From the NCBI GenBank assembly GCA_964536725.1, contig CAZHYJ010000001.1:53018-117017 (forward strand): DNA of 64,000 nt. Direction: 5' to 3'. Position 1 is the stretch's first letter, and the number at the start of each line of letters is the position of its first letter. Under the pieces are notes generated by a model that was given only the letters and a program-made list of their open reading frames with translations, was not told the DNA's origin and ran no database searches. Shown here one piece after another: positions 7,813 through 26,926 of this stretch. This stretch comes from an uncultured Gammaproteobacteria bacterium. Its GTDB lineage: Bacteria > Patescibacteriota > Patescibacteriia > Magasanikbacterales > GWA2-37-8. The position numbers were made by a program, and so were the translations under genes.

Positions 7813-7832
7813 AAGTCGTCAAATAAAACTTG

Positions 7833-7906
7833 CGGGTATAGTATAACGGCTATTATGCGTCCTTGCCAAGGACGAGTCACGGGTTCGACTCCCGTTACCC
7901 GCTCCA
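7833..7906 (+). tRNA. tRNA-Gly (anticodon GCC), CCA encoded. Its 3' end overlaps the 3' end of the serine recombinase gene on the opposite strand.
   Basis: Acceptor GCGGGTA/TACCCGC; anticodon stem CGTCC/GGACG; loop TTGCCAA; T-arm ACGGG-TTCGACT-CCCGT; then TCCA. Confidence 0.85.
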
Positions 7907-9483
7907 ATGTGAATAAACAGCTTGAAAAGAGCTGTTTTTTCTTTTATCTTCGCAATAAATTGTCGGTTCTAACATGGCCTTTTGAAGGACTTCATCCTTT
8001 AAACCTTCACGCAAAGTTAAGTATGGTTTTTGCAGTTCAATATGCAGTTTTTTGTCCTTTAAATAAAAGTTCTGACCGAGCGTTCGTAAAATATCGGTTT
8101 TAATCTGTATGTCTCCGGCCTCAAATTTGATTTTGGCATAGGTGGCAAACTCAAAAGCACCTTCCGTTAATTCTACCCATTCATTGACCCCTGTCTCAAT
8201 TTCTCTTATCACACCCTCAATTCGCGCCTTCTCCGTCATTAAGGAATTTTTCTGTTCTCTATATTCGTTATCACTTAAAAATGTTCGGTCAGCGTTACTC
8301 GGTGATATAAACAAATTTATTAAATTATCTATGCTTTTAAGGCAGTTGTTATAATTTTCTTGTTGAGCCTTTAATACAATCTCCCGGTTCTTTTCCTCAA
8401 TAATATTTCTGTTCCTTAATATTTCAACAGCCCAATGCAAAAATTCTTCCGGTATAGTAATGGCATCTAGATAGGTAGAAATTTGTTTTAGAATTTCCTC
8501 ACTGGTTATTGATTTTTGGCTGCATGTCTTACCACATTTATTATGCGAGCAATGGTGGTAAAGATGTCTTTTAATACTTCCGTCCTTCATCTTTTTAAAT
8601 TTTTCTTCGGCAGTTATCATACCATCGCATTCAGCACAACGGATTATTCCATTAAAAGGTAACCTTTTATATTTAGGCCGTGGTTTTCCGCTCTGCCCTA
8701 ATATTTTTTGTGCCAAATCAAACTGTTCTTTCGTGATCATTGGTTCATGTTTGCCTTCGTATATTTTTCCATTATAAACAAATTCACCACAATAAAAAGA
8801 ATTGGTAAATATTTTATACATTGCACTTAAACATAATGGCTGGCCATCTTTGTTTCTCAATCCATACTCATTGCATACTATCTGATGAATTTGATTAACG
8901 GAGTAGTTGCCGGTTAGCAATAACCCCCAGGCTTTTTTTACCAACTCAAATTTTGATTCGTCTTTAAATAATCTTTTTTTACCTTTTTCTCCTGCTTTAT
9001 CGTTTAGATATCCGATAGCAGCAATGCCCGGTCTCCATCCTTTTTCAACTTTTGTATTCATTCCTCGCTTAACATCCTTGCTTAAGTCAAGGACATACTG
9101 GTTGGCCATGCCAAACTCAACAGCCATCATCAATATGTTGTCGGTGGGTAAGTATTCTCTACCAGGCGTAACAATTGATTTTATTATCCCTTGTTGTAAA
9201 AGCCATTGTATCTCACCGCCATCAATTGGATTTCTGGCTAGACGGTTTAATTTCCAACAAACCACACCATCTGCTTCGCCGCGTTTTATCATTTTCATCA
9301 TTTCATCATATTGTGGTCTACCTGGTTTCTTTGCCGACATTGATTCGCCAAATGTTTTGATAATATTTAAGCCTTTTCTTTTAACTTCATATCCTAACTC
9401 CTTTTTTTGATCATCAATAGATTGAACTTGACGATCTTCGGAATCAGTAGATTTTCTACAATACATGATATAGCGTAATGACA
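7895..9483 (-). CDS. Large serine recombinase (resolvase-type N-domain, recombinase domain and zinc-ribbon), integrase of an integrated element
   Basis: N-terminal ..YCRKSTDSEDRQVQSIDDQ.. holds the catalytic-Ser region. ..VVCWKLNRLARNPIDGGEI.. and a Cys cluster (..CAECDGM...HHCSHNKCGKTC..) follow. The ORF is open to 9541; the likely start is MSLRYIMYC at 9483. Confidence 0.8.
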
Positions 9484-9510
9484 TATAATTTAATTTTAAT
9501 AATAAATAAA

Positions 9511-9630
9511 AGGACGGTCTGGTTGACCCAACTCTATACATTCCGAAGGAATGATATCGCTGGCAGACCGCCCTTTTATGGCAGTGATATCAAAAAATAA
9601 AACCTTCGGATAGATTATAGGTTGGGTCAA
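9511..9630. repeat. Nested inverted repeats just upstream of the recombinase start: GTTGACCCAAC/GTTGGGTCAAC, CCGAAGG/CCTTCGG, GGACGGTCTGG/~GGCAGACCGCC
   Basis: Seen directly. Candidate operator or recombinase-binding site. Confidence 0.4.
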
Positions 9631-9706
9631 CGGATATATTATAGCATATGATTTTAGTTATTTCTATATTATCTGGACTTAAAAAAGTAAACCAAAGTAA
9701 ACAGAA

Positions 9707-10105
9707 TTATGGCGGTCTTTCAAACCCTTGAATCTCTCTCAACAGGCGATGTCCTTGTTGTTTTGCTGTTTTGGGACTAAATCCTGCCCGAATTGCCGCC
9801 TCTTTGGCATTGCCTAATGTTGCTATGTAGTTATGCAAAAAACGTAGTCTCCGCAAACAAGGCCCATTAAACGCTGGAAGGCGCTTCACAATTGTGTTGT
9901 TCATGACATAGTCTGCAATATAAAAAAATACTAATTTATTTGGTTTGCAAAAGATAAGATCCCTTATAAAACGTATCTCTTGAATATTAAACCTTGGTAG
10001 TTTTTTAGGTTTTTTAAAATCGTCTGATAGATATAATGTATTTAAACACTCTATAAGAAATTTGGTGCTATAAGTCGTTTCCTTCTTGGTGTGGGTTTGT
10101 TTCAT
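9707..10105 (-). CDS. Protein with a C-terminal terminase-small-subunit-like HTH
   Basis: ..IATLGNAKEAAIRAGFSPKTAKQQGHRLL.. resembles the Terminase_2 N-terminal DNA-binding motif. Confidence 0.4.
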   Translation of the reverse strand: MKQTHTKKETTYSTKFLIECLNTLYLSDDFKKPKKLPRFNIQEIRFIRDLIFCKPNKLVFFYIADYVMNNTIVKRLPAFNGPCLRRLRFLHNYIATLGNAKEAAIRAGFSPKTAKQQGHRLLREIQGFERPP

Positions 10106-10250
10106 AGAGATAGTTTTTAATAATTAAATTTAAAATATCCGTCATTACCGAACCTTTGGAGGCGGCAACAACTTTAAGTTCCTTATGCAACTCCTTATCA
10201 ATACGAACTTGTTTTGTATTGTTTTTATTATTTTGTAACTTTGTTGACAT
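10068..10250 (-). CDS. Ribbon-helix-helix (CopG/Arc-like) DNA-binding protein
   Basis: MSTKLQNNKNNTKQVRIDKELHKELKVVAASKGSVMTDILNLIIKNYL is an RHH-like beta-strand followed by two helices. The ORF is open upstream only because of the G/C-rich leader. Confidence 0.45.
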   Translation of the reverse strand: MSTKLQNNKNNTKQVRIDKELHKELKVVAASKGSVMTDILNLIIKNYLYETNPHQEGNDL

Positions 10251-10262
10251 ATTATTACCATC

Positions 10263-10334
10263 ACCCTTCCCTAGATAACCCTCTCCCTCCCTGCACTCCC
10301 TCAACCCGAATGTCCTACTTGTCCTGTCCCTCCC
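10263..10334 (-). promoter_or_regulatory. G-tract-rich leader (GGGAGGGAGAGGG..GGG..GGG on the minus strand) upstream of the RHH gene; potential G-quadruplex or i-motif
   Basis: There are at least six C3 tracts on the plus strand within 70 nt, in otherwise AT-rich DNA. Confidence 0.35.
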
Positions 10335-10548
10335 GTAAAGAGTCTCGTCTTTACTCAAAGGTTTGGTTAGTTTGGTCATTTTAAGTGAAAAATTTTTCAC
10401 TCATTCGGTATATCGGTCGTTTGGTCGGTCGCCCATAATCTCTGCTAAATTTTATTTTATATCGTTTTAGCCAGCGCTATGGGTGCGCCCTCATACGATA
10501 AGGTTCAAAGTCCTGATCTATTTCTTTGTTAGAAATAAGTCGGGGCTT

Positions 10549-10812
10549 TTAACTTTGGGATATGTTGTTAAGCCATTTTAAATTAGCCTGTGGCACAAAA
10601 TTTAAGATAGCATTCGGCATAGCAGCCCCTCCGCTCACAAACTCTCGGCCAGCTATTTTGTTCTTCTTGGTCTCTCTCATCCAGCGACATTTGTCTTGTG
10701 TGCTACCGCTTCTTAAATTTAAATCAGGATCCAGTGGACAAAGATTTTGAGAACAGGAGTTAAAATTTGGGCAATGACGTAAATTATCAACGGCGTTTAA
10801 TTCTTTTGTCAT
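10549..10812 (-). CDS. Hypothetical small Cys-containing protein (CPNFNSCSQNLCPLD...C)
   Basis: ORF only. Possible zinc-binding motif. Confidence 0.3.
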   Translation of the reverse strand: MTKELNAVDNLRHCPNFNSCSQNLCPLDPDLNLRSGSTQDKCRWMRETKKNKIAGREFVSGGAAMPNAILNFVPQANLKWLNNISQS

Positions 10813-10814
10813 AT

Positions 10815-11000
10815 TTATGTATTATTTTTTGGAGTTAAGCTATGTTTATTATGTTCTGCTTTGGTTATGGGTTGAAAAACTAACTCAACAAGCCGGAGAA
10901 GTTTGATCCCGATTTCACACGCTTCTTTCTTGGTTGTTTCTTTGCCATGTCGTTTGCAAAGAGTTTGAAATTCTAGGATTTCGTCCTCGGACAAGATCAT
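10815..11000 (-). CDS. Hypothetical small protein
   Basis: ORF only. Tightly spaced with its neighbours on the same strand. Confidence 0.3.
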   Translation of the reverse strand: MILSEDEILEFQTLCKRHGKETTKKEACEIGIKLLRLVELVFQPITKAEHNKHSLTPKNNT

Positions 11001-11082
11001 AATTAAAAATCACACTGGGTTATAGTGTGATTATATATGACTTAATTTTGAGTAGTGTGACGATAACTGGCACCAATTAAAA

Positions 11083-11856
11083 TCAGTCACCAAATAACAT
11101 TTTTCTCTTTTTTTGAATTACAGAGTAGATTTTTCTTACAAGTGAGGCTTTACTTGTTTTTTTAAAAAACTTTTTAGCTATTTCTTTACTGGTGTATTGC
11201 TCTAACTTTTTATCTACTTTATATCCATTTTTTTTCTTTATTTTTTCATATTCAGTTTCACTATACTGTTTTTTTAGTATTGATAGATACATACTGGGGT
11301 GTTCAACCCACTCTTTTTTTCTTTTCCGCATTTCCTCTTCAATTTTTATAGCTAAATCTATATCAATTTTGGGTCTTAAATCCAGCGTTACCTTTGATGG
11401 CAAAAATTCTTTTTGTAATTGTAGTAATTTTTTGGTCGCTGCTCTAATTTCTTCTTTTGTTAGCGATGCATATGCTTTAATTGATACCCACTTATTAGAT
11501 CTGTTTCCGCTAGGGTCTGGGCCAAGAGAAACAGCAAAGTTAATTTTAGGAGCATCTATTTTATTAGAAATAATAAAATTTTTTATATGAATCAAAAAAT
11601 TATACCGTAATTGATATTTTTTTGTTAAACTTTCTGCATTATAAAAAAGACCGCTCTCATCCAATAATGATCTTTTGTTTGGGGGAAGCGCGTTTAGGTT
11701 TTTGCCAAGCCAATGTTTTTTTAGTATTTCATTATCAAATCCATGTACAGGAATTTTTATTTTTTTTCTGATCTTTTTAACATCCTCCAAAAATTTTGGA
11801 TGACTTGCGAGCAGTTTCATTATAAACAAATTTTCTTTATATGTTTTTTCAAACAT
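11083..11856 (-). CDS. Hypothetical Lys-rich protein
   Basis: ORF with coherent composition. No recognised motif. Confidence 0.4.
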   Translation of the reverse strand: MFEKTYKENLFIMKLLASHPKFLEDVKKIRKKIKIPVHGFDNEILKKHWLGKNLNALPPNKRSLLDESGLFYNAESLTKKYQLRYNFLIHIKNFIISNKIDAPKINFAVSLGPDPSGNRSNKWVSIKAYASLTKEEIRAATKKLLQLQKEFLPSKVTLDLRPKIDIDLAIKIEEEMRKRKKEWVEHPSMYLSILKKQYSETEYEKIKKKNGYKVDKKLEQYTSKEIAKKFFKKTSKASLVRKIYSVIQKKRKMLFGD

Positions 11857-11912: not shown

Positions 11913-12024
11913 TATGATATTATAATTTAGTATATATTAGCTTAACTACAAAGACAAATTACTAATTACAATACCTAACCCCTAGAGACTTCTGGCGATT
12001 CTTTTCTAGGATATGGTAATCAAA

Positions 12025-12137
12025 CCCTACGCGAATAAAGATGGTCTTCTGACCAGCACTTATTCGCGTAGGTTCACTCCCGAAAGGGGGCGAGGCAGGT
12101 CCGAAAGGATTTGTCGCTGTGTCGGGAGGCCTTTTTT
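12025..12137 (+). ncRNA. Candidate structured RNA: a 14-bp hairpin, then a helix with GAAA tetraloop carrying the SRP-RNA-like motif CAGGUCCGAAAGGA, then GCCUUUUUU
   Basis: The local sequence is GC-rich. Paired arms are CCCTACGCGAATAA/TTATTCGCGTAGG and CTCCCGA/TCGGGAG. A 10-nt direct repeat CCTACGCGAA lies at 12026 and 12167. SRP RNA identity is a guess. Confidence 0.25.
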
Positions 12138-12180
12138 GTTCTCTCGGCGAGCCCTAATTATTAAATCCTACGCGAAAAAT

Positions 12181-12903
12181 ATGAAGAAATATCTTCTAAT
12201 TTTATTCTTGGTAGCAATCATGTTTCCCTCGGTAGCTTTTGCTTCTTGGTGGAATCCTTTTTCTTGGAAAATTTTTAATTCCTCTCACAAAAAAGAAGTA
12301 GTGCTACAGGCACAGGCGGTTAATAATAAACCAGTAGTTAGTCCAACGGTAGAAAACAAAAAACTACAAAATCAAAATTTAAATTTAGAAAAAAAACCAA
12401 AAGAAATCGCTAATGATGAATGGTATAATGTTACAATTTTAACTCCTCCGAACAGAAAATCAGATGATCCACCTGGGGGAATGAAGTTTGAGGTTAAACT
12501 TAAAAATCTAAATGTAACCCCGTTTATTACAAATCTAGGTATCTGTGGATGTACTCTTTCTGATCTGAAAGGGAAAACCTACAGAACTGAATTTTCCGGT
12601 GAAGGTAGATTAAAAAAGGCTTTATTACCAGGAGAGGAAGCCAGCTTAAATTTTTTTAGTACGTTCAGTCATAGAGAATTTGTTAAAAATGGTGAAGTTG
12701 AGTGTCGCGGGGAAAATACTTTAGATTTTATTATGTTGGATTGGAGTAAAAATATAGTTAAGTGTATATATAATCAATCCGGTGAGTGTGCATGTGAAGA
12801 TCTTGGCCCAATGCATGTTGTGAATTGTGATTTCAGTATTTCAACAGATGGCAAGCAAGCTTCTTGCTGGGGCAAATATCCGACGACAGTAAAAATAGAT
12901 TAG
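12181..12903 (+). CDS. Secreted hypothetical protein (signal peptide MKKYLLILFLVAIMFPSVAFA)
   Basis: The ORF is open from 12013, but the N-terminal 56 codons overlap the structured RNA. The likely start is M12181. Confidence 0.5.
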   Translation: MKKYLLILFLVAIMFPSVAFASWWNPFSWKIFNSSHKKEVVLQAQAVNNKPVVSPTVENKKLQNQNLNLEKKPKEIANDEWYNVTILTPPNRKSDDPPGGMKFEVKLKNLNVTPFITNLGICGCTLSDLKGKTYRTEFSGEGRLKKALLPGEEASLNFFSTFSHREFVKNGEVECRGENTLDFIMLDWSKNIVKCIYNQSGECACEDLGPMHVVNCDFSISTDGKQASCWGKYPTTVKID

Positions 12904-12928
12904 GATTTATCCAAATTGCACCAAAATT

Positions 12929-13903
12929 ATGGATGTTAAACAAATCAATGAGTACGCTGAAAAATTGTGTAGTGTTATTAAACTCTATTACCTAAAGGAT
13001 TATTGTGATAATGATAAAAACTGGTTTAGTGCCTGCCAATTATCAATGCGTAATTTTGTTTTGTCTCGTAATGGGTGGCTTAAAAGTGATAAATCTGAAG
13101 ATACTTTGGTATTTGCTGGCAAACACCACTTAACGGTAAATATACTCTACAGCGGCTCACCGGGTGAGCTCATGCTAAATACAGCAATCGGTATTGCCAA
13201 AGCAGAGTTAATTGATAATTTTAACACCAATGGAAAAAATACGCTTGAAGACACTGTAACAAACATTGAAAAATGTGTTAGAGGTCAGGATTGGATAATA
13301 CCATTTGTGCGTAATAAACATTTTACCCAAAACAATAATAAAAATATGAACAAACACACCTCTATTCTTCGTTGGCTCTCAATAATACCAGTGGTTTTTA
13401 CAATTGTTTATTTATCGGATTGGATTGTAAGATTTATTTTATGGTTTTTGCGTTTACCAATAATTATATTTGAAAAGATTTTTGGTTTTGGTTCCGGCCC
13501 AATTGGAAAATTGTTTGATAATATAACAAATTTTCTTTTTGGACTTAATAGTATTGGCACTTTGACCGTAATTTTTTCTGGTCTACTAACAATGTCAGCA
13601 ATTGTTTATCTTTTGGCCATTATTATACCTAAAGACAATAAATCTACCGCACGAACATTGGCAATAATTTTATTGACTTTTTTCGCTATTAGTTTAGTTG
13701 CCACTTTTTTATCTAACAGAATGACAGGAGAAGTCATACTATATACAATCGTTTTAACAACGGGAGCTATTTTGGGGTGGAATTCAATTAAAAAAGAGAC
13801 AGAAAAAGAAAGGGAAAAACATGAGTATCTGGTTCAAAAATATATTAAGCGTATTTTTATTTTTACAACTCTGTTTACGGTATTTTTGTTATTTTTTTCT
13901 TGA
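12929..13903 (+). CDS. Hypothetical protein with a soluble N-domain and a C-terminal multi-TM region
   Basis: ORF. Several hydrophobic helices lie in the C-terminal half. Confidence 0.5.
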   Translation: MDVKQINEYAEKLCSVIKLYYLKDYCDNDKNWFSACQLSMRNFVLSRNGWLKSDKSEDTLVFAGKHHLTVNILYSGSPGELMLNTAIGIAKAELIDNFNTNGKNTLEDTVTNIEKCVRGQDWIIPFVRNKHFTQNNNKNMNKHTSILRWLSIIPVVFTIVYLSDWIVRFILWFLRLPIIIFEKIFGFGSGPIGKLFDNITNFLFGLNSIGTLTVIFSGLLTMSAIVYLLAIIIPKDNKSTARTLAIILLTFFAISLVATFLSNRMTGEVILYTIVLTTGAILGWNSIKKETEKEREKHEYLVQKYIKRIFIFTTLFTVFLLFFS

Positions 13904-13953
13904 GATAAGGTAGGTTCATTATTTGGAGTGTGTTATAGTGGTACATTAACTTT

Positions 13954-14445
13954 ATGAAAGGTAAGCACGAAAAATATATAGTATTATTCTTTTTCGGCGT
14001 TGTCGCAATAGCTGGTATTGTTATTTATAACAACAATAAAATAAACAGCTTTTCAAATTCACTTACCGTAAACGCACAAGCCAATAATAAAGCAGTAGAA
14101 CAACAAGTAAATAATGGCTGGGAAGACTGTGAAAATTATAAAGATATAGAAATTTTTAAAAAACCAAAACAGATTGTCTGGTTAGCCAAAATGAATGGTT
14201 GTCTAGAGAGTTGCCAAGGAGGGTCTTTTACCAGTATAGAAGCAGGAGTTGAATACCCAAGGTTTGCCGCCTATCTACCAGATGGCGAAAAAATACCCGA
14301 GGAGTATAAGGATAAAAATGATCTAGTTTTAAAGATAGTCGGCGAATGGATCGGCATTGGCGACGATTATTACAATACCGTTTTTAGTGGTCAATGCGTG
14401 CCTATAATTACAATTAAAAGCGTTACACCGGCAGCAAACATTTGA
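13954..14445 (+). CDS. Hypothetical membrane-anchored protein
   Basis: N-terminal TM helix; Cys-containing ectodomain. Confidence 0.45.
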   Translation: MKGKHEKYIVLFFFGVVAIAGIVIYNNNKINSFSNSLTVNAQANNKAVEQQVNNGWEDCENYKDIEIFKKPKQIVWLAKMNGCLESCQGGSFTSIEAGVEYPRFAAYLPDGEKIPEEYKDKNDLVLKIVGEWIGIGDDYYNTVFSGQCVPIITIKSVTPAANI

Positions 14446-14491
14446 TAGATTTGGATATCTGTATAATCGTAGTAACTAAAGCCTAAAAAAT

Positions 14492-14785
14492 GTGAAAAAA
14501 ATATTTCTCTATATATTTTGGACGATGATGCTAATATTTATCGCGGTAGCGCTAATTTATGGGTTTATAACTTATTCCATCTTTAAGGTAGATTCAAGTG
14601 GGCTGATTTATGATGGTCTTGGCAGACAACTTTATGAAGCGCCTCTTTGGGCGAAGTTTTTATTATTGAACGAACACCGGTGGCCTGGTTTATTTTGGAC
14701 AATATTTGATAGAGCAGCATGTGTTTGTTTTGGCAGTTTGGCATATATAATGCATAAACTTGCAACAAAAATGAGCATTGAATAA
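14492..14785 (+). CDS. Hypothetical small membrane protein
   Basis: Two predicted TM helices. Confidence 0.4.
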   Translation: MKKIFLYIFWTMMLIFIAVALIYGFITYSIFKVDSSGLIYDGLGRQLYEAPLWAKFLLLNEHRWPGLFWTIFDRAACVCFGSLAYIMHKLATKMSIE

Positions 14786-14803
14786 AAATTTGTATCAAGT
14801 ACT

Positions 14804-15289
14804 ATGCCCATCCTCTCAACGTTTTACACCATAGTAATTCCAATTGAAAACTTAAAAAGAGTCTTAACTGATGAGGAATTACAAAAAGCCTTGGCCGAAA
14901 AGAATTATCTGACCATGGTTAGGTTTGATGATAATTTATATAGTGAATCCACAATGGGCCCTTATGATAATGAAATTGTTATTAAGTATTGGGAAAGCAA
15001 GGGTTTAATTCCGACAGAAATAGTTAATGGAGAAGAGCGTTGGAAAGATCTGTGTCTGGTGGCTGCACCCGATAATCAGCCGACAGCACCTTGTGATTGG
15101 GTTGAAATCTTCTCTGTTGATGAATATAACAGCTATATTAACTTGAAAGGAAAACCAAGAGATCTTCTAGTAAAACAAACATCTTCGGTTGAAGAATTTG
15201 CGAAAGCATTAAAATACACGAAACAAGAATTGCAGCAACTCCTTCACAACAGGCCTATAACAAAAAAAGTCTGTTTTAGAGATTATTGA
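14804..15289 (+). CDS. Hypothetical cytoplasmic protein
   Basis: ORF only. Confidence 0.45.
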   Translation: MPILSTFYTIVIPIENLKRVLTDEELQKALAEKNYLTMVRFDDNLYSESTMGPYDNEIVIKYWESKGLIPTEIVNGEERWKDLCLVAAPDNQPTAPCDWVEIFSVDEYNSYINLKGKPRDLLVKQTSSVEEFAKALKYTKQELQQLLHNRPITKKVCFRDY

Positions 15290-15353
15290 GTGTCTTCTAA
15301 ATTAGGTTGACTTACCCATGTTGTTAGGCTAACATAAAGCCGTAAAACACTTT

Positions 15354-15749
15354 ATGAAAAAGGCCTATCTAACTTTTCTATTTTTATTCATTTTTCTTCC
15401 ATCGGTAACCTTGGCCCACCCCGGACGCACGGATTCTTCTGGTTGCCATACTTGTCGCACAAATTGTGCTAAATGGGGGCTTTCTACGGGCGAATATCAT
15501 TGTCATAGGGCAAAGACACTCCCGCAGCCAAAAGAGCCCATTAAAAGCCATTTTAGCGAGACTGGTGGGTATATCACGCCGGCACCGGAGTATAAACAAC
15601 CTGCCACTAATATTAAAAAGGCAGTTACGACAACCGCCGAAGTTAAGCCGGTAGTAAAACAGGTTGAAGTTAAATCAACTGCTAAACAAGCAGAGGTTAA
15701 AGTGAGCGAATCGTGGTTTACTAAGTTGGTTAGATTTTTGTTTAAATAA
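15354..15749 (+). CDS. Secreted protein with a Cys/His motif (..GRTDSSGCHTCRTNCAKWGLSTGEYHCH..) and a Lys/Val-rich repetitive tail
   Basis: Signal peptide; GxCHxC...YHCH metal-binding-like motif. Confidence 0.45.
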   Translation: MKKAYLTFLFLFIFLPSVTLAHPGRTDSSGCHTCRTNCAKWGLSTGEYHCHRAKTLPQPKEPIKSHFSETGGYITPAPEYKQPATNIKKAVTTTAEVKPVVKQVEVKSTAKQAEVKVSESWFTKLVRFLFK

Positions 15750-15750
15750 T

Positions 15751-16482
15751 ATGGAAAAAATTAGCCTTATAGCACAAGTATTCTTAGTTTTAATAACTAT
15801 AGCGGGCTGGTTTGCCGTCTACTACCTAAATTTAAAACAACAACGGAAAAATTTGGAAGATAACGCAAAATATAGGGTTTATGAAAAATTTTGGTCGTCA
15901 AGAGGACTTATATATAGCACACATAATCAATTAAGTAGCCAAATATTTGTGGGCCCGCCATTTATTCTAATGGATTCCACAAAAATTCTTGGGCAAGTCA
16001 CGAACAGGCAGGAAGATGTGTGGAAAGGACAACAGAACGCTATACAGATCTTTTTTGAATATCGGAATAAATTAGCGTCGTTAAATGAAAATTTTAATGA
16101 CACATATCTACAATTTTGGAGAGATGTTGAAATGTGGTTACATGTAATGCCAGACCTTGAACAATCGGCAAAGATTCTTTTTTCTGAATATACTATTACA
16201 AAAGATTTAGTTTACAAACATATTAGTTATTTACAGATTCTTGACGCTCAAAAATGGGAGACATTTAATCGCAACGATATCAAAGAAAGAGCAGAGACGG
16301 TATGGGGTAGTATGTCTAACCTCAGTGCTTACACGGAGGATTTTATGGCGTTAATTCACAACGAGCTTGTTGGTCCGTTATTTAAGTACAAAAAAACTGT
16401 CAGGGTCCCAATGGATCAGAGATATAAAGTGTTAACTAAAGATGGTTTGAAAATTATTGATAGTGCACATAGCATAAAATGA
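15751..16482 (+). CDS. Hypothetical protein with an N-terminal TM helix
   Basis: ORF only. Confidence 0.45.
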   Translation: MEKISLIAQVFLVLITIAGWFAVYYLNLKQQRKNLEDNAKYRVYEKFWSSRGLIYSTHNQLSSQIFVGPPFILMDSTKILGQVTNRQEDVWKGQQNAIQIFFEYRNKLASLNENFNDTYLQFWRDVEMWLHVMPDLEQSAKILFSEYTITKDLVYKHISYLQILDAQKWETFNRNDIKERAETVWGSMSNLSAYTEDFMALIHNELVGPLFKYKKTVRVPMDQRYKVLTKDGLKIIDSAHSIK

Positions 16483-16710
16483 TGATTAAAAGTTATCAAT
16501 ACAAAACTTCGTTTGAGTAGTGGTTATTTGGCACCATTTTTGCATGATGGATGATGGTGTTGCTTTAATGTAAAAAGGGTTGTATACTATAGATAGTGAA
16601 TATTCTTCAATTTTACATGATGTGTTATGTGGTGGGTTCTTTTTAGTGAGTAGGCTTTATAAATATTGACATTTTTTAGTAATTGTGTTTAAATGTTATA
16701 CTAAACTTAT

Positions 16711-17121
16711 ATGGGGAATTTGTCACCACTACAACATAGAATCAACGTAATATTAGCTAATCTCAGAGTGAAATTATTTCCGAGTAATAATTTGATAAAA
16801 GAGGTGCATGTTTGTTGTAACCAAAAATTACCAAAGGATGTTAAGGTGATTTGGAAAAGAGAAGATGATGGTTTTATAGTTGGCCATGTTAATGTAGATG
16901 GTTATGAGTTTACTACCCAAGGTAAAAATGCTAAAGATTTTATAAACATGGTAAATGATGCCATCTACGCTATTTACGAAATCCCCCCACAGTATATTCC
17001 TTATCTTGGTGGTTATCAAAGATATTTTCCTAAACCAGATCAGCTAGAACTGTTAAAAGATAAAAGCATTACAAATTCAACTCTTGGTTTCTATCAAAAC
17101 CAACATTGTCCAGCATCTTAA
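16711..17121 (+). CDS. hicB: HicB-like antitoxin (RNase H-like fold N-domain)
   Basis: ..WKREDDGFIVGHVNVDGYEFTTQGKNAKDFINMVNDAIYAIYE.. matches the HicB N-terminal pattern. It directly precedes the HicA-like gene. Confidence 0.5.
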   Translation: MGNLSPLQHRINVILANLRVKLFPSNNLIKEVHVCCNQKLPKDVKVIWKREDDGFIVGHVNVDGYEFTTQGKNAKDFINMVNDAIYAIYEIPPQYIPYLGGYQRYFPKPDQLELLKDKSITNSTLGFYQNQHCPAS

Positions 17122-17125
17122 GAAT

Positions 17126-17377
17126 ATGGGTGAATTTGCAGATGTAAAAAGAAAGAAAATTTTAAAGCTGCTGAAAAAGTTAGCTCAAATAAATGGCTTT
17201 ACAATCACTACTGGAGGTAATCATCAATGGGTAATTAGGTATACGAGCTGGCAGAGACCTTTCCCAATCCCATTTAAACAAAATAAGTTAAAAAAATGTT
17301 ATATTGAGGATCTTGCAAAGCTGGTCATTGCAACTGGAACATGCACAGAAGAAGTTTTTAAGGAATGGATAGGGTAA
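17126..17377 (+). CDS. hicA: HicA-like mRNA-interferase toxin
   Basis: ..KKILKLLKKLAQINGFTITTGGNHQWVIRYTSWQRPFPIPFKQNKL..DLAKL.. matches the HicA/YcfA pattern. The start is 4 nt after the hicB stop. Confidence 0.55.
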   Translation: MGEFADVKRKKILKLLKKLAQINGFTITTGGNHQWVIRYTSWQRPFPIPFKQNKLKKCYIEDLAKLVIATGTCTEEVFKEWIG

Positions 17378-17437
17378 AATAAAAATAAAATACACCTATT
17401 TTGTGAGTGTATTTTTTAATTTTGTATAAAAAATATA

Positions 17438-17590
17438 GTTCTAACATCCTCTACTAAGGAGCTCACTTTTCGTAAAACACCAAAACTCTGCTAAGTCTGG
17501 CAGAGTTTTTGGTTCTGATATTTGGCATAAGGTACATATATTTACTACCCCTTTGGAGAAAAAATGGCAAGAGTAGAACCGATTGAAAAA
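17438..17590 (+). repeat. Cassette-boundary repeat, copy 1 (long form): GTTCTAACATCCTCT..AAGGAGCTCA box, then hairpin AAAACTCTGC/GCAGAGTTTT with a T-run
   Basis: Near-identical over about 135 nt to the copy at 19598. It contains a tiny SD-ATG ORF (MARVEPIEK..). Confidence 0.6.
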
Positions 17591-18480: not shown

Positions 18481-18515
18481 ATTTATAGGTAGAAACCAAT
18501 TTATTTTGGTAAACC

Positions 18516-18577
18516 GTTCTAACATCCTCTATCAAGGAGCTCGCCGTAAACTTCGCTTAAACAGCGGGGTTTTTTGT
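18516..18577 (+). repeat. Cassette-boundary repeat, copy 2 (short form): conserved box, then G-U-containing hairpin AAACUUCGC/GCGGGGUUU with a T-run
   Basis: It shares the box and AAACTTCGCTTAAACAGCGGGGTT with the copies at 21124 and 22214. Confidence 0.6.
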
Positions 18578-18612
18578 TATACCCACAAGAAGAGTCGAAC
18601 TAAAACAAAAAA

Positions 18613-18638
18613 CACTCAGTAATTCTGAGAGTTTTTTA
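18613..18638 (+). terminator. Hairpin CTCAG-TAATT-CTGAG followed by AGTTTTTT
   Basis: Seen directly. Confidence 0.4.
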
Positions 18639-18790
18639 TTCCTCAATCACTTCTATAAATAAAAATGATAATCGGAGGGGAGGTCAAGACTTGCGTCACG
18701 ACCCCCGTTGCGAGTGCGTTCGTCAAACCTTGCGGTCTTCAGAACAGCACTGACACAGTTCCCCTCCGAGCGCGCCGGCCGTGTGACCGA

Positions 18791-19336
18791 CTACGCCGGC
18801 TTATCGGCCGACTTCTGCGCGCGCATGACCCGCACGTAGCCGAGCACGTCGGCCCAGCTCGAGACGAAGGCCGGGCCCATCACGTTCTCGTCGTGGACGA
18901 GGCCGTTCTGGGTCCAGAACTCGATCTCGGCGGCGTTGTTGTCGATGACGCCGGGGTCGTGGGGCTCGCGCGGGGCGCTGGGGCCGGGGAAGCTGGTGTA
19001 GAGCTGCCACGACGTGCCGTCGTCCGAGATGCCCGCGATGACCGTGAAGAGGGACGTCGGCTGCTTCTCGATCCCGACGAGGACGTGGCTCGGCACGTCG
19101 CGGCCCTTGCGGAACGCGAAGTACATCTGCCCGTTGTCCACGACGGGGAGGCAGCCGTTGAGGCCGACGATGCGCCCCATGTCGATGGTCGTCAGCAGGA
19201 ACCCCCCGCTCTCGGGCATGGTCACCATGCCGATCGCCTCCTCGAGGAGGGCCATCGCCTCGGGGTGCGCCTCGAGGTGCTTCTGGGTCTGGTCGGACAC
19301 GATGACCTTCTTGCCGCACTTGCTCTGGAATTCCAT
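18791..19336 (-). CDS. Hypothetical protein on a strongly GC-rich (foreign-composition) segment
   Basis: Of three overlapping long ORFs in this segment, only this frame has a balanced amino-acid composition. It also has a GGAGG Shine-Dalgarno 6 nt before the ATG. The segment, about 18.66-19.44 kb, is by eye roughly two-thirds G+C against AT-rich flanks. Confidence 0.55.
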   Translation of the reverse strand: MEFQSKCGKKVIVSDQTQKHLEAHPEAMALLEEAIGMVTMPESGGFLLTTIDMGRIVGLNGCLPVVDNGQMYFAFRKGRDVPSHVLVGIEKQPTSLFTVIAGISDDGTSWQLYTSFPGPSAPREPHDPGVIDNNAAEIEFWTQNGLVHDENVMGPAFVSSWADVLGYVRVMRAQKSADKPA

Positions 19337-19597
19337 CGGAAAACCTCCATTGTGGCCGGATTGGTTGCCGGCACTTGGTTCACTACCCGCCCTAAGAGCG
19401 CGGAATACTTAACGCCAGACTGACGTAAAATACACCGCGTTTTAGTGCAGATGATGTAAGGGAACTGTGTCTTGTAAAGAACAGCGTTCCATTATTAGGA
19501 ACCGAATGGTATAGCATAAAAAGGGATTTTTGTCAAGATTAAGGCTAAAAAATGGCTAATTTAACTGTTTGCACAAACTTCTCTATTTATCAAAGCA

Positions 19598-19731
19598 GTT
19601 CTAACATCATCTACTAAGCAGCTCAGATTTTCAAAAACCTCAAAACTCTGCTAAATCTGGCAGAGTTTTTGGTTCTGATATTTACTACCCCCTTTGGAGA
19701 AAAAATGGCAAGAGTAGAACCGATTGAAAAA
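19598..19731 (+). repeat. Cassette-boundary repeat, copy 3 (long form)
   Basis: Near-identical to copy 1, including the hairpin AAAACTCTGC/GCAGAGTTTT and the tiny ORF MARVEPIEK... Confidence 0.6.
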
Positions 19732-19892
19732 ACTGTAAATATCTGGTAATCTAATATGGTATATTATTTATATGGACAAACAAGAAGAGATTAAAAAAAT
19801 TAGAAAATTAGTTCAGAATAGAATTAAACTAAAAAAAGAACTGGCTAGCTTGCCAGAATTTAAGGAACGATTAAAAAAAGCAAAAGAAAAAT

Positions 19893-21068
19893 ATGAGGCC
19901 AAACAATGAGGGCATATCAATCGGTGCAACAGAACTTTCGCGTGAAAGGGTCCTTGAAATGTCACCAAAAGAATTGGTTGATTATTTTACTCACCTTGAA
20001 GAATCTGGGGGATTAGAAGCATACTTGCAAAGAGCTTCCAAGGATGATGCTTTGGTTGCTATGTTTAGTTATTGGGAAAAGTGGTTGACAAATGATCAGC
20101 GCGCGATGGTTGATGATATTGTAAGACAGAAAAAAGAGTTATATCCTGGAAACAGTGAGTCATTACCACTAGAATTGGAAAAAAGGTTTACTGGAGACGA
20201 ACTTGAAATTATTTTTTCAAATTTATTAGCTATACAACTTACTTTTGGTTGCTCCAAAGGTTGTCCGTTTTGCGGTTTTGATGCGGTTCCTGGCGTAAGA
20301 GAACACATACCTTATTCTCAATTGGCTAATATGTTTCAGAGGTTTGGTAAAGAGATTGGGGAAAGTAAGCCGTTGTTGTATTATGCTTCAGAACCAACCG
20401 ATTACCTCGACGAAGATAATACATACATGGATGTGCATCAGTTGGCAGTAGAGTATGCTAAGTATAAGCCACATGTAACGAGTAAAAATACTGATACTGA
20501 GTGGGTTGATTTTTTATCTAAAAAAGTAAATAAACCAAGAATAAGCTTGTTTGGTGTTCCAGAAGAATCAATATTAAATTTGGAAAGCTTGTCTGCAATC
20601 ACAGGTATTGAATTAGGGGGAAGACAAAAAAAACACTTTGAGGGTTTGGGAGTTTCAAGACAAAAGACAGAAGCGCCATTTAGTGTTGGGATAGGCTGTG
20701 GAAGTGGTATCTTAATTACACCACGAGGTTTGTATAATACTTTAACTTTATCAAGGACCAGCGATAGGTTTCCTCAGGGTATAGCAATTCAACCGTTTGA
20801 AAAAGAAGATGATAATTTTGATATAAAAATAGGGTCAGATGTTGTTGAAATAATGAAGAATACTTTAATAGGCAAGTTGCGTGCCATTACTGGTTTTTTC
20901 TTCGTAAGACAGCATGGTGTAAAAGTGTATGTAAAAGTTAATGACGCTGGTAAAGTTGTTGATTTTTACAAACAAAACGAACCTTGGAACCGGGCTGATC
21001 ACCAGCCATTTTTTGTGGAACTTGTTGATAGGCTCTTAGCGTCTGAGAAAGTAGCTGGTGTAAAATAA
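19893..21068 (+). CDS. Hypothetical protein with a CxxxCxxC motif (..TFGCSKGCPFCGFD..), possible radical SAM-like enzyme
   Basis: Only the CxxxCxxC motif was noted; the remaining radical-SAM signature was not checked. Confidence 0.4.
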   Translation: MRPNNEGISIGATELSRERVLEMSPKELVDYFTHLEESGGLEAYLQRASKDDALVAMFSYWEKWLTNDQRAMVDDIVRQKKELYPGNSESLPLELEKRFTGDELEIIFSNLLAIQLTFGCSKGCPFCGFDAVPGVREHIPYSQLANMFQRFGKEIGESKPLLYYASEPTDYLDEDNTYMDVHQLAVEYAKYKPHVTSKNTDTEWVDFLSKKVNKPRISLFGVPEESILNLESLSAITGIELGGRQKKHFEGLGVSRQKTEAPFSVGIGCGSGILITPRGLYNTLTLSRTSDRFPQGIAIQPFEKEDDNFDIKIGSDVVEIMKNTLIGKLRAITGFFFVRQHGVKVYVKVNDAGKVVDFYKQNEPWNRADHQPFFVELVDRLLASEKVAGVK

Positions 21069-21123
21069 ATAAATTTATTTTTATAAAAAATAGACAGATA
21101 ACAAATTAATTTATAATTAAATT

Positions 21124-21189
21124 GGTTCTAATATCCTCTGCCAAGGAGCTCAGATAAAAACTTCGCTTAAACAGTGGAGTTTTTTCTTA
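21124..21189 (+). repeat. Cassette-boundary repeat, copy 4 (short form)
   Basis: GGTTCTAATATCCTCTGCCAAGGAGCTCAGATAAAAACTTCGCTTAAACAGTGGAGTTTTTT. Confidence 0.6.
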
Positions 21190-21327
21190 ATATGGTATTA
21201 GAGAAGAGTCATATTTTATTGCTTTAAACCGTGAAAAAAGTAGTTTTTCTATATATTTTCACGGTTATATTGACAAAATAGTGAAAATATGCTATAATTG
21301 TATTAGATTCTACATTTAAGTTAGTAT

Positions 21328-22200: not shown

Positions 22201-22213
22201 TTTGTTGTAAGCA

Positions 22214-22278
22214 GGTTCTAACATCCTCCACCAAGCAGCTCACCGTAAAACTTCGCTTAAACAGCGGGGTTCTTTGTT
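22214..22278 (+). repeat. Cassette-boundary repeat, copy 5 (short form)
   Basis: GGTTCTAACATCCTCCACCAAGCAGCTCACCGTAAAACTTCGCTTAAACAGCGGGGTTCTTTG. Confidence 0.6.
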
Positions 22279-24441: not shown

Positions 24442-24512
24442 ATAAGAATAATTAAAAATTCCATTAAACCACGGTAATAACATGCCTTACAATATGGCGT
24501 CAATAATTATAA

Positions 24513-26060: not shown

Positions 26061-26063
26061 ATA

Positions 26064-26687: not shown

Positions 26688-26926
26688 ATTATTTGTTTTT
26701 AAAGTAAGTTAAAGCCTGGTCGATTTTGTCGCCATATATTAAGTCCATAAACTGAATAAACTTGGTCGCTAGCTCAGAAGCCTCGGAAGATGTGATTGGC
26801 GAACCAAAGTGTTTCAGATATAGATTTTGGAATTCAGTTGTTTCTTTCTCGGGAAACATAAGAGCCACGGGTAACGTGGCTCAATTATAAAATAATCGTT
26901 TTGGTTTGTATAAGTAAAAAGCGATA

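What the first reader, a model, noticed from the sequence alone, without database searches (positions are those of the whole stretch)
7833..9640. Large serine recombinase gene terminating inside tRNA-Gly(GCC), with a nested inverted-repeat site at its 5' end
The 3' end of the recombinase ORF overlaps the tRNA 3' end by 12 nt on the opposite strand. That is the classic geometry of a tRNA-targeting integrative element that reconstitutes the tRNA end. Upstream of the start codon lie three nested inverted repeats at 9511-9630: GTTGACCCAAC/GTTGGGTCAAC, CCGAAGG/CCTTCGG and GGACGGTCTGG/GGCAGACCGCC. These may be a recombinase or regulator binding site. The right-hand att repeat could not be located by eye, so the element boundary is open.
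Basis: partly seen in the sequence, partly recalled or inferred. Interest (0 to 1): 0.55.

Follow-up and report, generated by a model that had tools for sequence, protein, structure and literature searches.

The report
Serine-integrase islands inserted at tRNA ends
The recombinase gene marks the left end of a mobile island, inserted by a large serine integrase at the last bases of a tRNA-Gly gene, in a little-studied integrase clade that targets tRNA ends and carries its own conserved RNA leader.

Summary
LSR1 (7895-9484, minus strand) is a large serine recombinase whose last 12 nt lie antisense in tRNA-Gly(GCC). A 99.3%-identical metagenome contig lacks window 7905-18542. This 10,638-bp insertion is flanked only by a 4-nt core (GCTC). 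Its right end (18515-18543) imitates the tRNA T-loop plus acceptor end, with the T-loop motif exactly 5 bp further from the core. That spacing is the published attP-versus-attB signature of serine integrases. A 40%-identical paralogue sits the same way at tRNA-fMet; it bounds an 8,089-bp insertion that also has an empty-site allele. In 41 of 82 relatives, mostly Patescibacteria, the stop codon lies inside an antisense tRNA. The attP site lies inside the integrase reading frame, so integration swaps the protein's C-terminal tail. The upstream inverted repeats are not three nested DNA repeats. They form a conserved, covarying RNA leader with a promoter at its 5' end and a terminator-like helix that crosses the hairpin; it has no Rfam match. 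Four further attP-arm copies downstream indicate stacked cassettes. Recombination itself is inferred, not shown.

The parts
7832..7906 (+). tRNA-Gly(GCC). Its 3' half is the host (B) arm of the attachment site: T-loop motif GTTCGAC at 7883-7889, core GCTC at 7901-7904.
   Evidence: ARAGORN; Rfam tRNA 61.5 bits; sequence; junction with empty allele L088.
7881..7940 (+). attL of element E1: tRNA arm (7881-7904) joined to the element's P' arm (7905-7940). The P' arm contains an element-supplied terminator hairpin for the tRNA (7915-7937 plus a T run) and encodes the last conserved residues of the integrase on the other strand.
   Evidence: L088 alignment ends at 7904; terminator-like site.
7895..9484 (-). 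LSR1, a 529-aa large serine recombinase (resolvase catalytic domain, recombinase domain, zinc ribbon). Its last three codons and stop are antisense tRNA sequence.
   Evidence: PHROG integrase 1.4e-62; residues 226-341 match the A118 integrase C-terminal domain, PDB 4KIS.
9498..9631 (-). Conserved structured 5' leader RNA of LSR1. Hairpin P1 (9631-9621 with 9532-9522), P2 (9609-9603 with 9549-9543) and an inner stem. A terminator-like helix (9579-9564 with 9521-9506) followed by a U-tract crosses P1.
   Evidence: No Rfam family.
9638..9666 (-). Promoter-like site (TAGAAA, 17 nt, TG-TATAAT). It places the transcription start at about 9631, the first base of P1. A TATAAT-like box in the same position was seen by eye in most related leaders.
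   Evidence: upstream sequences listed.
9707..11856 (-). Leftward module of E1: 132-aa protein with a terminase-small-subunit-type helix-turn-helix (9707-10105), an Arc/ParG-like ribbon-helix-helix protein (10068-10400), and three proteins without matches (10549-10812, 10815-11000, 11083-11856).
11972..12115 (+). LOOT RNA (Rfam RF03000), lying between the leftward module and the rightward cargo genes.
   Evidence: 63.6 bits against a gathering score of 46.4. Similar RNAs lie in related elements.
12013..17377 (+). Rightward cargo genes of E1, mostly small membrane or secreted-looking proteins without family matches.
17437..17465 (+). Internal attP-arm copy 1 (GTTCTAAC, 15 nt, GCTC), followed by a terminator hairpin. 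It starts a 170-nt repeat shared with 19597-19748.
18515..18543 (+). attR of the 10,638-bp insertion: P arm CGTTCTAACATCCTCTATCAAGGAGCTCG. GTTC to GCTC is 23 nt here against 18 nt in the tRNA. The core GCTC is at 18539-18542.
18543..22242 (+). Older stacked modules, each ending in a P-arm copy plus a terminator. M2 has a G+C-rich ORF at 18791-19336 (minus strand) and ends at 19597-19625. M3 carries a radical-SAM protein (19893-21068) and ends at 21124-21152. M4 carries a Fic protein (21328-22200) and ends at 22214-22242.
   Evidence: M2 is only 75% identical in the otherwise 99.3% identical L088.
22781..22857 (+). tRNA-Met(CAT), read here as initiator type, with the attL core of the second element E2 (CCCGCAACAA at 22848-22857). 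T-loop motif GTTCAAAT at 22834-22841.
22693..24483 (-). LSR2, a paralogue of LSR1 (40% identity). Its ORF reads antisense through the whole tRNA-Met.
22858..30946 (.). Element E2, an 8,089-bp insertion: LSR2, a 515-aa protein without family match (24513-26060), a CHC2 zinc-finger primase-like protein (26064-26687), and cargo.
   Evidence: Empty-site allele L085.
30916..30946 (+). attR P arm of E2: GTTCGAAT (30918-25), an 11-nt spacer, then CCCGCAACAA (30937-46). The spacer in the tRNA is 6 nt. The host terminator follows.

Best explanation
Element and attachment sites.
- LSR1 is the integrase of a mobile island (E1) that inserted at the last bases of tRNA-Gly(GCC) by serine-recombinase site-specific recombination.
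- The host site (attB) is the tRNA 3' half plus whatever lies downstream.
- The element's site (attP) straddles the 3' end of the integrase gene.
- The P' arm of attP encodes the last conserved residues and carries a replacement terminator for the tRNA.
- The P arm, at the far end of the integrated element, imitates the tRNA T-loop and acceptor end, with the T-loop-like motif 5 bp further from the crossover.
- That shift is how serine integrases tell attP from attB, through placement of the zinc-ribbon domain.

Consequences of integration.
- Strand exchange occurs within GCTC (discriminator/C74), so the tRNA body stays intact.
- The integrase ORF then runs a few codons into antisense tRNA sequence, which explains the overlap.
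- After excision the ORF would instead run into the P arm. The predicted tail is ...YSHWSSLIEDVRT... for the P arm at 18515-18543 that bounds the insertion. All five P-arm copies read in frame as WS(S/C)L(V/I/A)(E/D)D(V/I)RT.

Leader RNA.
- The inverted repeats upstream are the template of a roughly 130-nt structured leader transcribed from its own promoter.
- A long hairpin competes with, or is knotted to, a terminator-like helix.
- I infer that this limits integrase expression by attenuation.

Shown versus inferred.
- Shown: insertion boundaries, empty alleles, the att architecture, the family-wide geometry and the RNA covariation.
- Inferred: catalysis by LSR1, the exact crossover dinucleotide, the regulatory role of the leader, and any function of the tail swap.
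For: Integrase identity.
- Domain architecture and invariant catalytic and zinc-binding residues.

Empty-site alleles.
- L088 is 99.3% identical over pnp and both tRNA-Gly genes, then jumps from 7904 to 18539 with a 4-nt overlap.
- L085 does the same for E2, joining 22857 to 30937 with a 10-nt overlap.
- Three other public-assembly contigs break exactly at the E2 cores.

The 5-bp shift.
- In all five E1 P-arm copies, GTTC to GCTC is 23 nt against 18 nt in the tRNA (coordinates).
- In E2 the spacer is 11 nt against 6 nt.
- A shift of +5 gave the best match in 10 of 13 comparisons, including the elements in L076, L048, L056, L009, L013 and L046.
- The same rule is published for the A118-type integrase (PMC3783163).

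Reading frame across attP.
- Predicted excised-form ORFs stay in frame and encode the motif (D/E)D(V/I)RT.
- The same motif ends relatives that have no tRNA next to them: L082, L052 and L073; L050 and L069 carry weaker variants (for L082, L052, L073).

Family-wide geometry.
- 41 of 82 copies stop inside an antisense tRNA of five amino-acid specificities. Another 17 have an antisense T-loop-like tail without a called tRNA.

Composition.
- G+C drops from 0.43 to 0.34 at about 8 kb.

Leader RNA.
- A covariance model finds it 24 times directly upstream of integrase genes in 1.3 Mb, and only once elsewhere, as a fragment.
- P1 has compensatory changes at 9 of 11 pairs, and the crossing helix at 8 of 13. 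None of 500 shuffles reached the observed score.
- One G.U pair is conserved in 19 of 25 sequences.
- A promoter-like site ends 7 nt before P1.
Against: - No recombination, excised circle or attP junction was observed.
- The empty allele for E1 is followed by a 75%-identical version of module M2 rather than by clearly ancestral host DNA. The true host flank is therefore uncertain.
- The right-hand half-sites (B', P') show no convincing symmetric T-loop-like motif, so the att model rests on the left arms.
- No recombination directionality factor was identified.
- Several relatives carry an attP-form tail inside large chromosomal contigs (for example L073), which the simple model does not explain.
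- The leader alignment used for the crossing helix was fitted to that helix, which inflates its pair counts. P1 was not part of the model.
- Terminator function of the leader is not demonstrated.
Confidence: 0.8

Rival explanations
1. It is a classic tRNA-reconstituting island. The crossover lies well inside the tRNA gene, the element carries a true copy of the tRNA 3' end, and a displaced tRNA fragment marks the far end, as with tyrosine integrases.
For: The integrase gene sits next to the tRNA 3' end. The right ends do contain T-loop-like and acceptor-like sequence. One related locus, L076, has a 22-nt exact tRNA-Asn 3' fragment about 190 nt beyond its P arm.
Against: - There is no tyrosine recombinase; the enzyme is a serine recombinase.
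- Apart from the neighbouring tRNA-Gly(TCC), the longest repeats of the tRNA-Gly 3' region elsewhere in the window are chance-level matches (E >= 0.12).
- Identity between the element ends is 4 nt (E1) and 10 nt (E2).
- The tRNA-like right ends carry a 5-nt insertion, so they are not displaced tRNA ends.
Confidence: 0.03
2. The island is a fossil: a once-mobile element now fixed, with a domesticated or decaying recombinase.
For: No excised form was seen. Only three contigs carry exactly this protein. The region downstream is a pile of P-arm scars. Modules M1 to M4 have no integrase of their own.
Against: - Strains 99.3% identical in the flanks differ by presence or absence of E1 and of E2.
- LSR1 is full length, with all invariant family residues.
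- attL, attR, promoter and leader are intact.
- Assembly breaks exactly at the E2 cores suggest mixed alleles within samples.
Confidence: 0.1
3. The inverted repeats act at the DNA level, as a binding site for the integrase or a regulator, a cruciform, or a replication or transfer origin, rather than as RNA.
For: Both strands fold about equally well. Covariation of Watson-Crick pairs fits DNA hairpins as well as RNA. An Arc-like repressor gene lies just upstream.
Against: - One G.U pair is conserved, and about 38 G.U cells in the alignment would be A.C mismatches on the other strand.
- A promoter-like site sits in a fixed position just 5' of P1, and a U-tract follows the crossing helix.
- The motif always lies on the integrase sense strand directly before the start codon.
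- It has no similarity to the att arms.
Confidence: 0.12
4. The ORF/tRNA overlap is a chance read-through with no biological meaning, and the gene merely happens to lie next to a tRNA.
For: The overlapping codons carry no conserved function in the integrated state. Tail lengths vary from 3 to more than 50 codons.
Against: The same geometry occurs in 41 of 82 relatives at five tRNA specificities, and in the paralogue in this window. The insertion boundaries coincide with the overlap.
Confidence: 0.01

Closest known systems
Phage large serine integrases (A118/LI, Bxb1, phiC31, SPbeta)
   Same: Three-domain architecture. Short att sites without long direct repeats. The same outer motif sits 5 bp closer to the centre in attB than in attP (PMC3783163).
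   Different: - Only 21-28% identical to any phage integrase in the collection searched.
- The target is the 3' end of tRNA genes, with the universal T-loop as the outer motif. Serine integrases were described in 2020 as 'not known for targeting tRNA genes' (PMC7192596).
- attP lies inside the integrase ORF.
- The elements carry no phage structural genes.
- The hosts are mostly Patescibacteria.
tRNA-targeting genomic islands and prophages that use tyrosine integrases
   Same: Insertion at a tRNA 3' end, the integrase gene next to the tRNA, preservation of the tRNA, and tandem accumulation of elements at one tRNA.
   Different: A different recombinase family. There is no 15-50 nt direct repeat; 4-10 nt are shared. 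The crossover is at the discriminator/CCA end. The far end is a spacing-shifted imitation of the tRNA arm, not a displaced tRNA end.
phiRSM-type small serine recombinase integrases
   Same: A serine recombinase acting as a site-specific integrase (PMC7192596). From memory, phiRSM uses a tRNA gene as attB.
   Different: Those enzymes lack the recombinase and zinc-ribbon domains. LSR1 has both.
Integration-dependent gene truncation in mycobacteriophages (attP inside the repressor gene; from memory, Broussard et al. 2013)
   Same: attP lies inside a coding sequence, so integration changes the C-terminus of the encoded protein.
   Different: There the recombinase is a tyrosine integrase and the altered protein is the repressor, with a demonstrated regulatory effect. 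Here the altered protein is the serine integrase itself, and no effect has been shown.
Attenuator and riboswitch-type 5' leaders with intrinsic terminators
   Same: A promoter-proximal structured RNA, a G+C-rich helix followed by a U-tract, and helices that cannot easily coexist.
   Different: No Rfam family matches. No ligand or partner is known. The terminator's 5' strand lies in the apical loop of the hairpin, so a pseudoknot is an equally open reading.

Membership tests
Large serine recombinase (serine integrase) | N-terminal resolvase-type catalytic domain with the catalytic serine | tested here: met
   Pfam Resolvase, E = 5e-18, residues 6-149. R10, K11 and S12 are invariant in 32 family members.
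Large serine recombinase (serine integrase) | Recombinase domain followed by a zinc-ribbon domain with four cysteines | tested here: met
   PF07508 (2.3e-10) and PF13408 (2.7e-6). C283, C286, C312 and C321 are invariant. Residues 226-341 match the A118 integrase C-terminal domain.
Large serine recombinase (serine integrase) | Coiled-coil insertion in the zinc-ribbon domain that controls directionality | not tested
   A conserved region of about 130 residues follows the zinc ribbon. No structure prediction or coiled-coil analysis was run.
Large serine recombinase (serine integrase) | Short attP/attB sites, only a few shared bases at the crossover, and the outer recognition motif 5 bp closer to the centre in attB | tested here: met
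   Shared core of 4 nt (E1) and 10 nt (E2). A +5 spacing in all five E1 P-arm copies, in E2 and in six other elements. The rule is from PMC3783163. It is met for the left arms only; the right arms are unclear.
Large serine recombinase (serine integrase) | Catalyses attP x attB recombination; excision needs a directionality factor | not testable with these tools
   This needs an enzyme assay. No directionality factor was identified.
Mobile integrative element | Presence/absence polymorphism with precise boundaries in near-identical genomes | tested here: met
   L088 lacks 7905-18542. L085 lacks 22858-30946.
Classic tRNA-reconstituting island (tyrosine-integrase type) | Tyrosine recombinase | tested here: not met
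   The only recombinases in the islands belong to the serine family.
Classic tRNA-reconstituting island (tyrosine-integrase type) | Direct repeat of about 15 nt or more of the tRNA 3' end at the far boundary | tested here: not met
   Apart from the neighbouring tRNA-Gly(TCC), only chance-level matches (E >= 0.12) to the tRNA-Gly 3' region occur elsewhere in the window. The boundary cores are 4 and 10 nt.
Known RNA families (Rfam 15) | Match of the leader to a curated covariance model | tested here: not met
   No hit at E <= 1 in 7000-12500. Only chance-level hits at E <= 10 in 9440-9720.
Intrinsic-terminator-based attenuator leader | G+C-rich helix followed by a U-tract, downstream of a promoter and upstream of the regulated ORF | tested here: met
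   Helix 9579-9564 with 9521-9506, then UUUUAUUU. It is conserved with covariation in 25 sequences. Promoter-like site.
Intrinsic-terminator-based attenuator leader | Mutually exclusive alternative structure that responds to a signal | tested here: inconclusive
   P1 and the terminator-like helix cross, and an extension of the latter overlaps the P1 3' strand. Whether they alternate or form a pseudoknot cannot be decided from sequence.
Integron | IntI tyrosine integrase and attC-bounded cassettes | tested here: not met
   There is no tyrosine recombinase. The cassette-like modules end in serine-integrase P-arm copies.

The most novel reading that the evidence does not exclude
These integrases may recognise essentially only the tRNA half of attB (the universal T-loop plus the acceptor end) and tolerate any right-hand arm. 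An occupied site would then remain a target. Elements and integrase-less cassettes could stack at one tRNA, each bringing its own tRNA terminator and P arm. The integrase could excise or reshuffle sub-arrays, giving an integron-like cassette system built on a serine recombinase. Because attP lies inside the integrase ORF, the enzyme made from the integrated copy differs in its C-terminal tail from the one made by the free circle (antisense-tRNA residues against a conserved ...DDVRT... tail). That difference could act as a built-in state sensor for directionality or stability. A new leader RNA class would gate expression on top of this.
Probability: 0.25. Interest if true: 0.8.

Novelty: new variant of a known kind. 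Interest (0 to 1): 0.66.

Why it matters
- tRNA genes are the textbook landing sites of tyrosine integrases. A 2020 survey stated that tRNA use by a large serine integrase had not been reported and that its 14 candidate cases needed experimental proof (PMC7192596).
- Here a whole clade, widespread in the poorly known Patescibacteria and a few other phyla, does exactly that. Its att sites can be read directly from the sequence.
- The design uses the near-universal T-loop as the zinc-ribbon motif and the acceptor end as the specificity determinant. This suggests how target switching between tRNAs evolves.
- It also offers compact, possibly retargetable integrases whose natural attB sequence is present in nearly every bacterium.
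- The work gives a genomic context to the orphan LOOT RNA.
- It adds one apparently undescribed structured RNA associated with integrase genes.

Tried and rejected
- A BLAST search for a direct repeat of the tRNA-Gly or tRNA-Met 3' region in the window found only the neighbouring tRNA-Gly(TCC). The 10-nt E2 core was too short to rank.
- A strict search for the last 10 nt of each tRNA, and a scored T-loop plus core scan, found P arms in only a few loci and missed E1 itself. The conserved motif GTTC[GT]AAC[AG]TC worked better.
- Exact-protein look-ups of pnp (two start codons) and of the 110-aa ORF gave no empty E1 site. The DNA pattern scan of metagenomes did.
- The viral collection holds only one relative. 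Annotated phages hold nothing closer than 28% identity.
- Rfam has no family for the leader.
- MAFFT alignments were not structurally consistent for the middle helix P2. I did not count P2 covariation formally and relied on inspection and single-sequence folds.
- I looked for a symmetric T-loop-like motif in the right-hand arms (B', P') and found none convincing.
- I considered and dropped the idea that the leader resembles the att arms; no GTTCGAA-type motif occurs in it.
- I could not work out how the five-site array in E1 arose.
Full report
**1. The observation**

ARAGORN finds tRNA-Gly(TCC) at 7681-7753 and tRNA-Gly(GCC) at 7832-7906, both on the plus strand. A minus-strand ORF runs from 9541 or 9484 down to a stop codon at 7895-7897. 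Its last codons, TGG AGC GGG TAA, are the reverse complement of the tRNA end TTACCCGCTCCA. The 12-nt overlap is therefore exact.

The 529-aa version starting at 9484 is the one on record as a called gene. It carries the Resolvase, Recombinase and Zn_ribbon_recom domains.

The upstream inverted repeats exist:
- 11 of 11 complementary at 9522-9532 and 9621-9631;
- 7 of 7 at 9543-9549 and 9603-9609;
- a 16-nt pair at 94% complementarity, 9506-9521 with 9564-9579.

The third pair crosses the other two rather than nesting inside them. The hairpin is far more stable than shuffled sequence, with z about -5.5 on either strand.

**2. A second copy of the same arrangement in the window**

A paralogue, LSR2 (22693-24483, minus strand), is 40% identical to LSR1. 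It reads antisense straight through tRNA-Met(CAT) at 22781-22855. G+C falls from about 0.43 to 0.28-0.38 between about 8 kb and 31 kb. This suggested two adjacent islands, E1 at tRNA-Gly and E2 at tRNA-Met.

**3. The geometry is a property of the family**

A protein search returns more than 4,000 homologues. The sources that name them call them Moranbacteria, Parcubacteria or Patescibacteria.

In an alignment of 32 members almost all end in ...FSxWSG*, or continue as WSGQGESNP.... These endings are antisense translations of a tRNA-Gly acceptor end and T-loop.

I fetched 80 genomic loci and one viral contig. I then scored all 82 integrase copies, including the two in the window:
- 41 have their stop codon inside an ARAGORN-called antisense tRNA. 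The overlap is 10-64 nt, median 13. The tRNAs are Gly 16, Asn 12, His 6, Gln 4 and Trp 3.
- A few more, such as LSR2, read right through the tRNA.
- 17 have an antisense T-loop-like tail but no called tRNA.
- 5 ORFs run off the contig end.

Some of the 'no tRNA' cases have an explanation. A group I intron lies directly beside the stop codon in L029 and L072. This matches the published intron-containing tRNA-Asn genes of Patescibacteria that standard tools miss (abstract of PMC13011429, listed).

**4. The right ends and the att architecture**

No long repeat of either tRNA end exists in the window. Translating the minus strand at the expected right ends revealed a shared motif:
- LVEDVRTCL near 22.2 kb;
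- LLRVLDDIRTCF near 30.9 kb.

The same motif ends relatives that lack a tRNA: L082, L052 and L073, with weaker variants in L050 and L069.

At the DNA level the right end of E2 reads:
- AAGTTCGAATGTCATCTAACACCCGCAACAA|ATAAAAAATGACC...

The tRNA-Met end reads:
- GGTTCAAATCCGGGCCCCGCAACAA|TGTTGG...

Both share the 10-nt core CCCGCAACAA. Both have a T-loop motif, but the spacer is 11 nt in the element arm and 6 nt in the tRNA.

For E1, the distance from GTTC to the shared GCTC is 18 nt in the tRNA. It is 23 nt in every one of five element-arm copies, at 17437, 18515, 19597, 21124 and 22214.

A shift of +5 was also the best fit in the elements of L076, L048, L056, L009, L013 and L046.

[quoted passage not shown] LSR1 residues 226-341 match that very protein.

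I therefore read the tRNA 3' half as the B arm and the imitation as the P arm.

**5. Empty-site alleles**

For E2, the public-assembly contig L085 (SRR16642447) matches window 32255-30937 at 99.5%. It then continues directly at 22857-22564 (99.3%) with a 10-nt overlap.
- E2 is therefore an 8,089-bp insertion (22858-30946).
- Three further contigs stop exactly at 22857 or 30937. This is what an assembler does when both alleles are present.

For E1, a pattern scan of metagenome contigs for tRNA end plus flank found L088.
- It matches window 5820-7904 at 99.3%.
- It then continues at 18539-19507 with a 4-nt overlap (GCTC).
- The window therefore carries a 10,638-bp insertion (7905-18542) whose right end is the P-arm copy at 18515-18543.
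- The empty allele reads ...ACCCGCTC|ACCGTAAAAC... and the occupied one ...ACCCGCTC|CAATG.... The element thus supplies the CA that completes an encoded CCA.
- The element also brings a new terminator hairpin at 7915-7937.

**6. attP lies inside the integrase ORF**

Joining each P arm to the P' arm keeps the frame open.
- For the P arm at 18515-18543 that bounds the insertion, the predicted excised tail is ...VYSHWSSLIEDVRTVYQNKLVSTYKFN*. For the copy at 22214 it is ...YSHWSCLVEDVRTCLQQ....
- For E2 the predicted excised tail is ...QSPTLLRVLDDIRTCFRDRLR* (sequence).

Integration therefore replaces this tail with a few antisense-tRNA codons.

Variation among P arms falls largely on synonymous or conservative positions of the DDVRT reading. 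For example, GTTCGAAC versus GTTCTAAC corresponds to CGA versus AGA, both arginine. This hints that the tail may matter as protein. I did not test it.

**7. What kind of element**

E1 and E2 have no phage structural genes.
- E1 has a helix-turn-helix protein of terminase-small-subunit type, an Arc-like repressor and many orphan genes.
- E2 has a CHC2 primase-like protein and a 515-aa protein without family match.

They look like small integrative, possibly mobilisable or satellite-like, elements. One relative sits in an IMG/VR viral contig in the attP form (L082).

**8. The stack downstream of E1**

Beyond 18543 lie three further modules. Each ends in a P-arm copy plus a terminator hairpin.
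- M2 holds a G+C-rich ORF.
- M3 holds a radical-SAM protein.
- M4 holds a Fic protein.

Inside E1 there is one more P-arm copy at 17437. A 170-nt repeat links 17437-17607 and 19597-19748.

M2 is only 75% identical in L088 although the flanks are 99.3% identical. These modules are therefore variable cassettes themselves.

L076 and L024 also carry multiple P arms.

How such stacks form with a serine integrase is unresolved. One possibility is that only the tRNA arm of attB matters, so an occupied site stays a target.

**9. The inverted repeats are an RNA leader**

The upstream regions of many relatives show the same layout with different sequences:
- a TATAAT-like box;
- 6-8 nt later an outer helix P1, for example GTTGACCCAAC/GTTGGGTCAAC or GCTTACCTAA/TTAGGTAAGC;
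- a middle helix P2;
- often an inner helix;
- an apical AAAGGGCGGUCUGCC whose GGGCGGUCUG pairs with CAGACCGUCC placed right after P1, followed by UUUU.

RNAalifold picks the last helix as the consensus, with 13 of 21 pairs showing double changes.

A covariance model finds the motif in 25 of 82 sources. Twenty-four hits lie directly 5' of the integrase on the same strand, and one fragment lies elsewhere.

On that alignment P1, which was not in the model, has double changes at 9 of 11 pairs. The crossing helix has them at 8 of 13. The observed score was reached in 0 of 500 shuffles, and slid registers collapse.

One pair is G.U in 19 of 25 sequences. This fits RNA on the integrase sense strand, not the opposite strand.

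In 23 of 25 leaders the P1-closed hairpin is the minimum-energy fold.

A TG-extended -10 element ends at 9638, 7 nt before P1. No Rfam family matches.

P1 and the terminator-like helix cross each other, so they form either a pseudoknot or alternatives. Given the U-tract, I favour an attenuator that keeps integrase expression low. This is inference.

**10. Comparison with what is known**

The enzyme passes the sequence tests for a large serine integrase, and the sites pass the spacing test. The classic tyrosine-type tRNA island fails on both of its defining features.

[quoted passage not shown] It found 14 of 297 candidates and called for experimental proof (PMC7192596). The large 2022 catalogue of serine recombinases does not contain the word tRNA. 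I found no paper describing this clade, but the library is incomplete.

I therefore rate it a new variant of a known kind. The chemistry is known. The target class is new, attP is embedded in the ORF, there is a new leader RNA, and the elements form cassette-like stacks.

**11. Limits**

Everything about catalysis, the crossover position within the core, directionality, leader function and tail function is inferred from sequence. The right-hand half-sites are not understood. Several chromosomal relatives carry attP-form tails and remain unexplained.

Noticed in passing
window 22693-30946: A second, independent element (E2) with a paralogous serine integrase sits at the tRNA-Met 3' end. It is an 8,089-bp insertion with a 10-nt core and has an empty-site allele in another sample (L085).
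   Followed up: yes
window 11972-12115 (+); also L024 7571-7685 and weaker matches in L025, L014, L009, L005, L006: LOOT RNA (Rfam RF03000, an orphan motif) lies inside the element, 2.5 kb upstream of the integrase on the opposite strand. Similar sequences recur inside related elements, so LOOT appears to belong to this element family.
   Followed up: partly
window 17437, 18515, 19597, 21124, 22214: Five copies of the attP left arm occur, each followed by a terminator hairpin of one of two types. A 170-nt repeat links 17437-17607 with 19597-19748. A (G/A)TAAAAC motif sits 8-14 nt after the core in one flank type and 4-10 nt after it in the other. How the array formed is unexplained.
   Followed up: partly
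window 18600-19500: A G+C-rich patch (0.44-0.46 against about 0.33 around it) has long ORFs open in several frames on both strands. The most protein-like is 18791-19336 on the minus strand, with no family match. The region is 75% identical in L088 although the flanks are 99.3% identical.
   Followed up: partly
L083, L084, L086 (public-assembly contigs of SRR11845624/5): These contigs end exactly at window positions 22857 and 30937, the two copies of the E2 core. This is as expected if occupied and empty alleles coexist in the samples.
   Followed up: partly
L029 11606-11880 (-), L072 11648-11911 (-): Group I introns lie directly beside the integrase stop codon where no tRNA was called. These are probably intron-containing tRNA-Asn genes serving as targets.
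   Followed up: partly
L076, about 188 nt beyond the first P arm (locus position about 3790) and at about 675: A 22-nt exact copy of the tRNA-Asn 3' end with its own hairpin lies here. A second P arm lies 3.1 kb further on. This looks like the remnant of an older element with part of its attL.
   Followed up: no
L063 4443-4514 (-): An orphan 3' half of the leader RNA motif lies on the opposite strand 5.5 kb from the integrase. It may be a relic of a decayed element.
   Followed up: no
L073, L052, L020, L022, L079, L059 (integrase 3' ends): These relatives, listed under phyla such as Verrucomicrobia and Aminicenantes, sit inside large chromosomal contigs. Their ORFs run on into longer, non-tRNA tails; four (L052, L059, L073, L079) carry a DDVR-type tail, and L052, L059 and L079 continue into a conserved AAALIYAHF(K/R/Q)(K/S)EF stretch. 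No tRNA is nearby. Their integration state is unclear.
   Followed up: no
window 7901-7906 compared with L088 2082-2088: The empty allele encodes ...GCTCACC, without a CCA. The occupied allele encodes ...GCTCCAA, so the insertion creates a genomically encoded CCA end for tRNA-Gly(GCC).
   Followed up: partly
window 7727-7753 and 7878-7904: The two adjacent tRNA-Gly genes share their last 27 nt (26 of 27 identical), including the whole B arm. tRNA-Gly(TCC) should therefore be an equally good target, yet it is unoccupied. A public-assembly contig (L087) breaks at this repeat.
   Followed up: no
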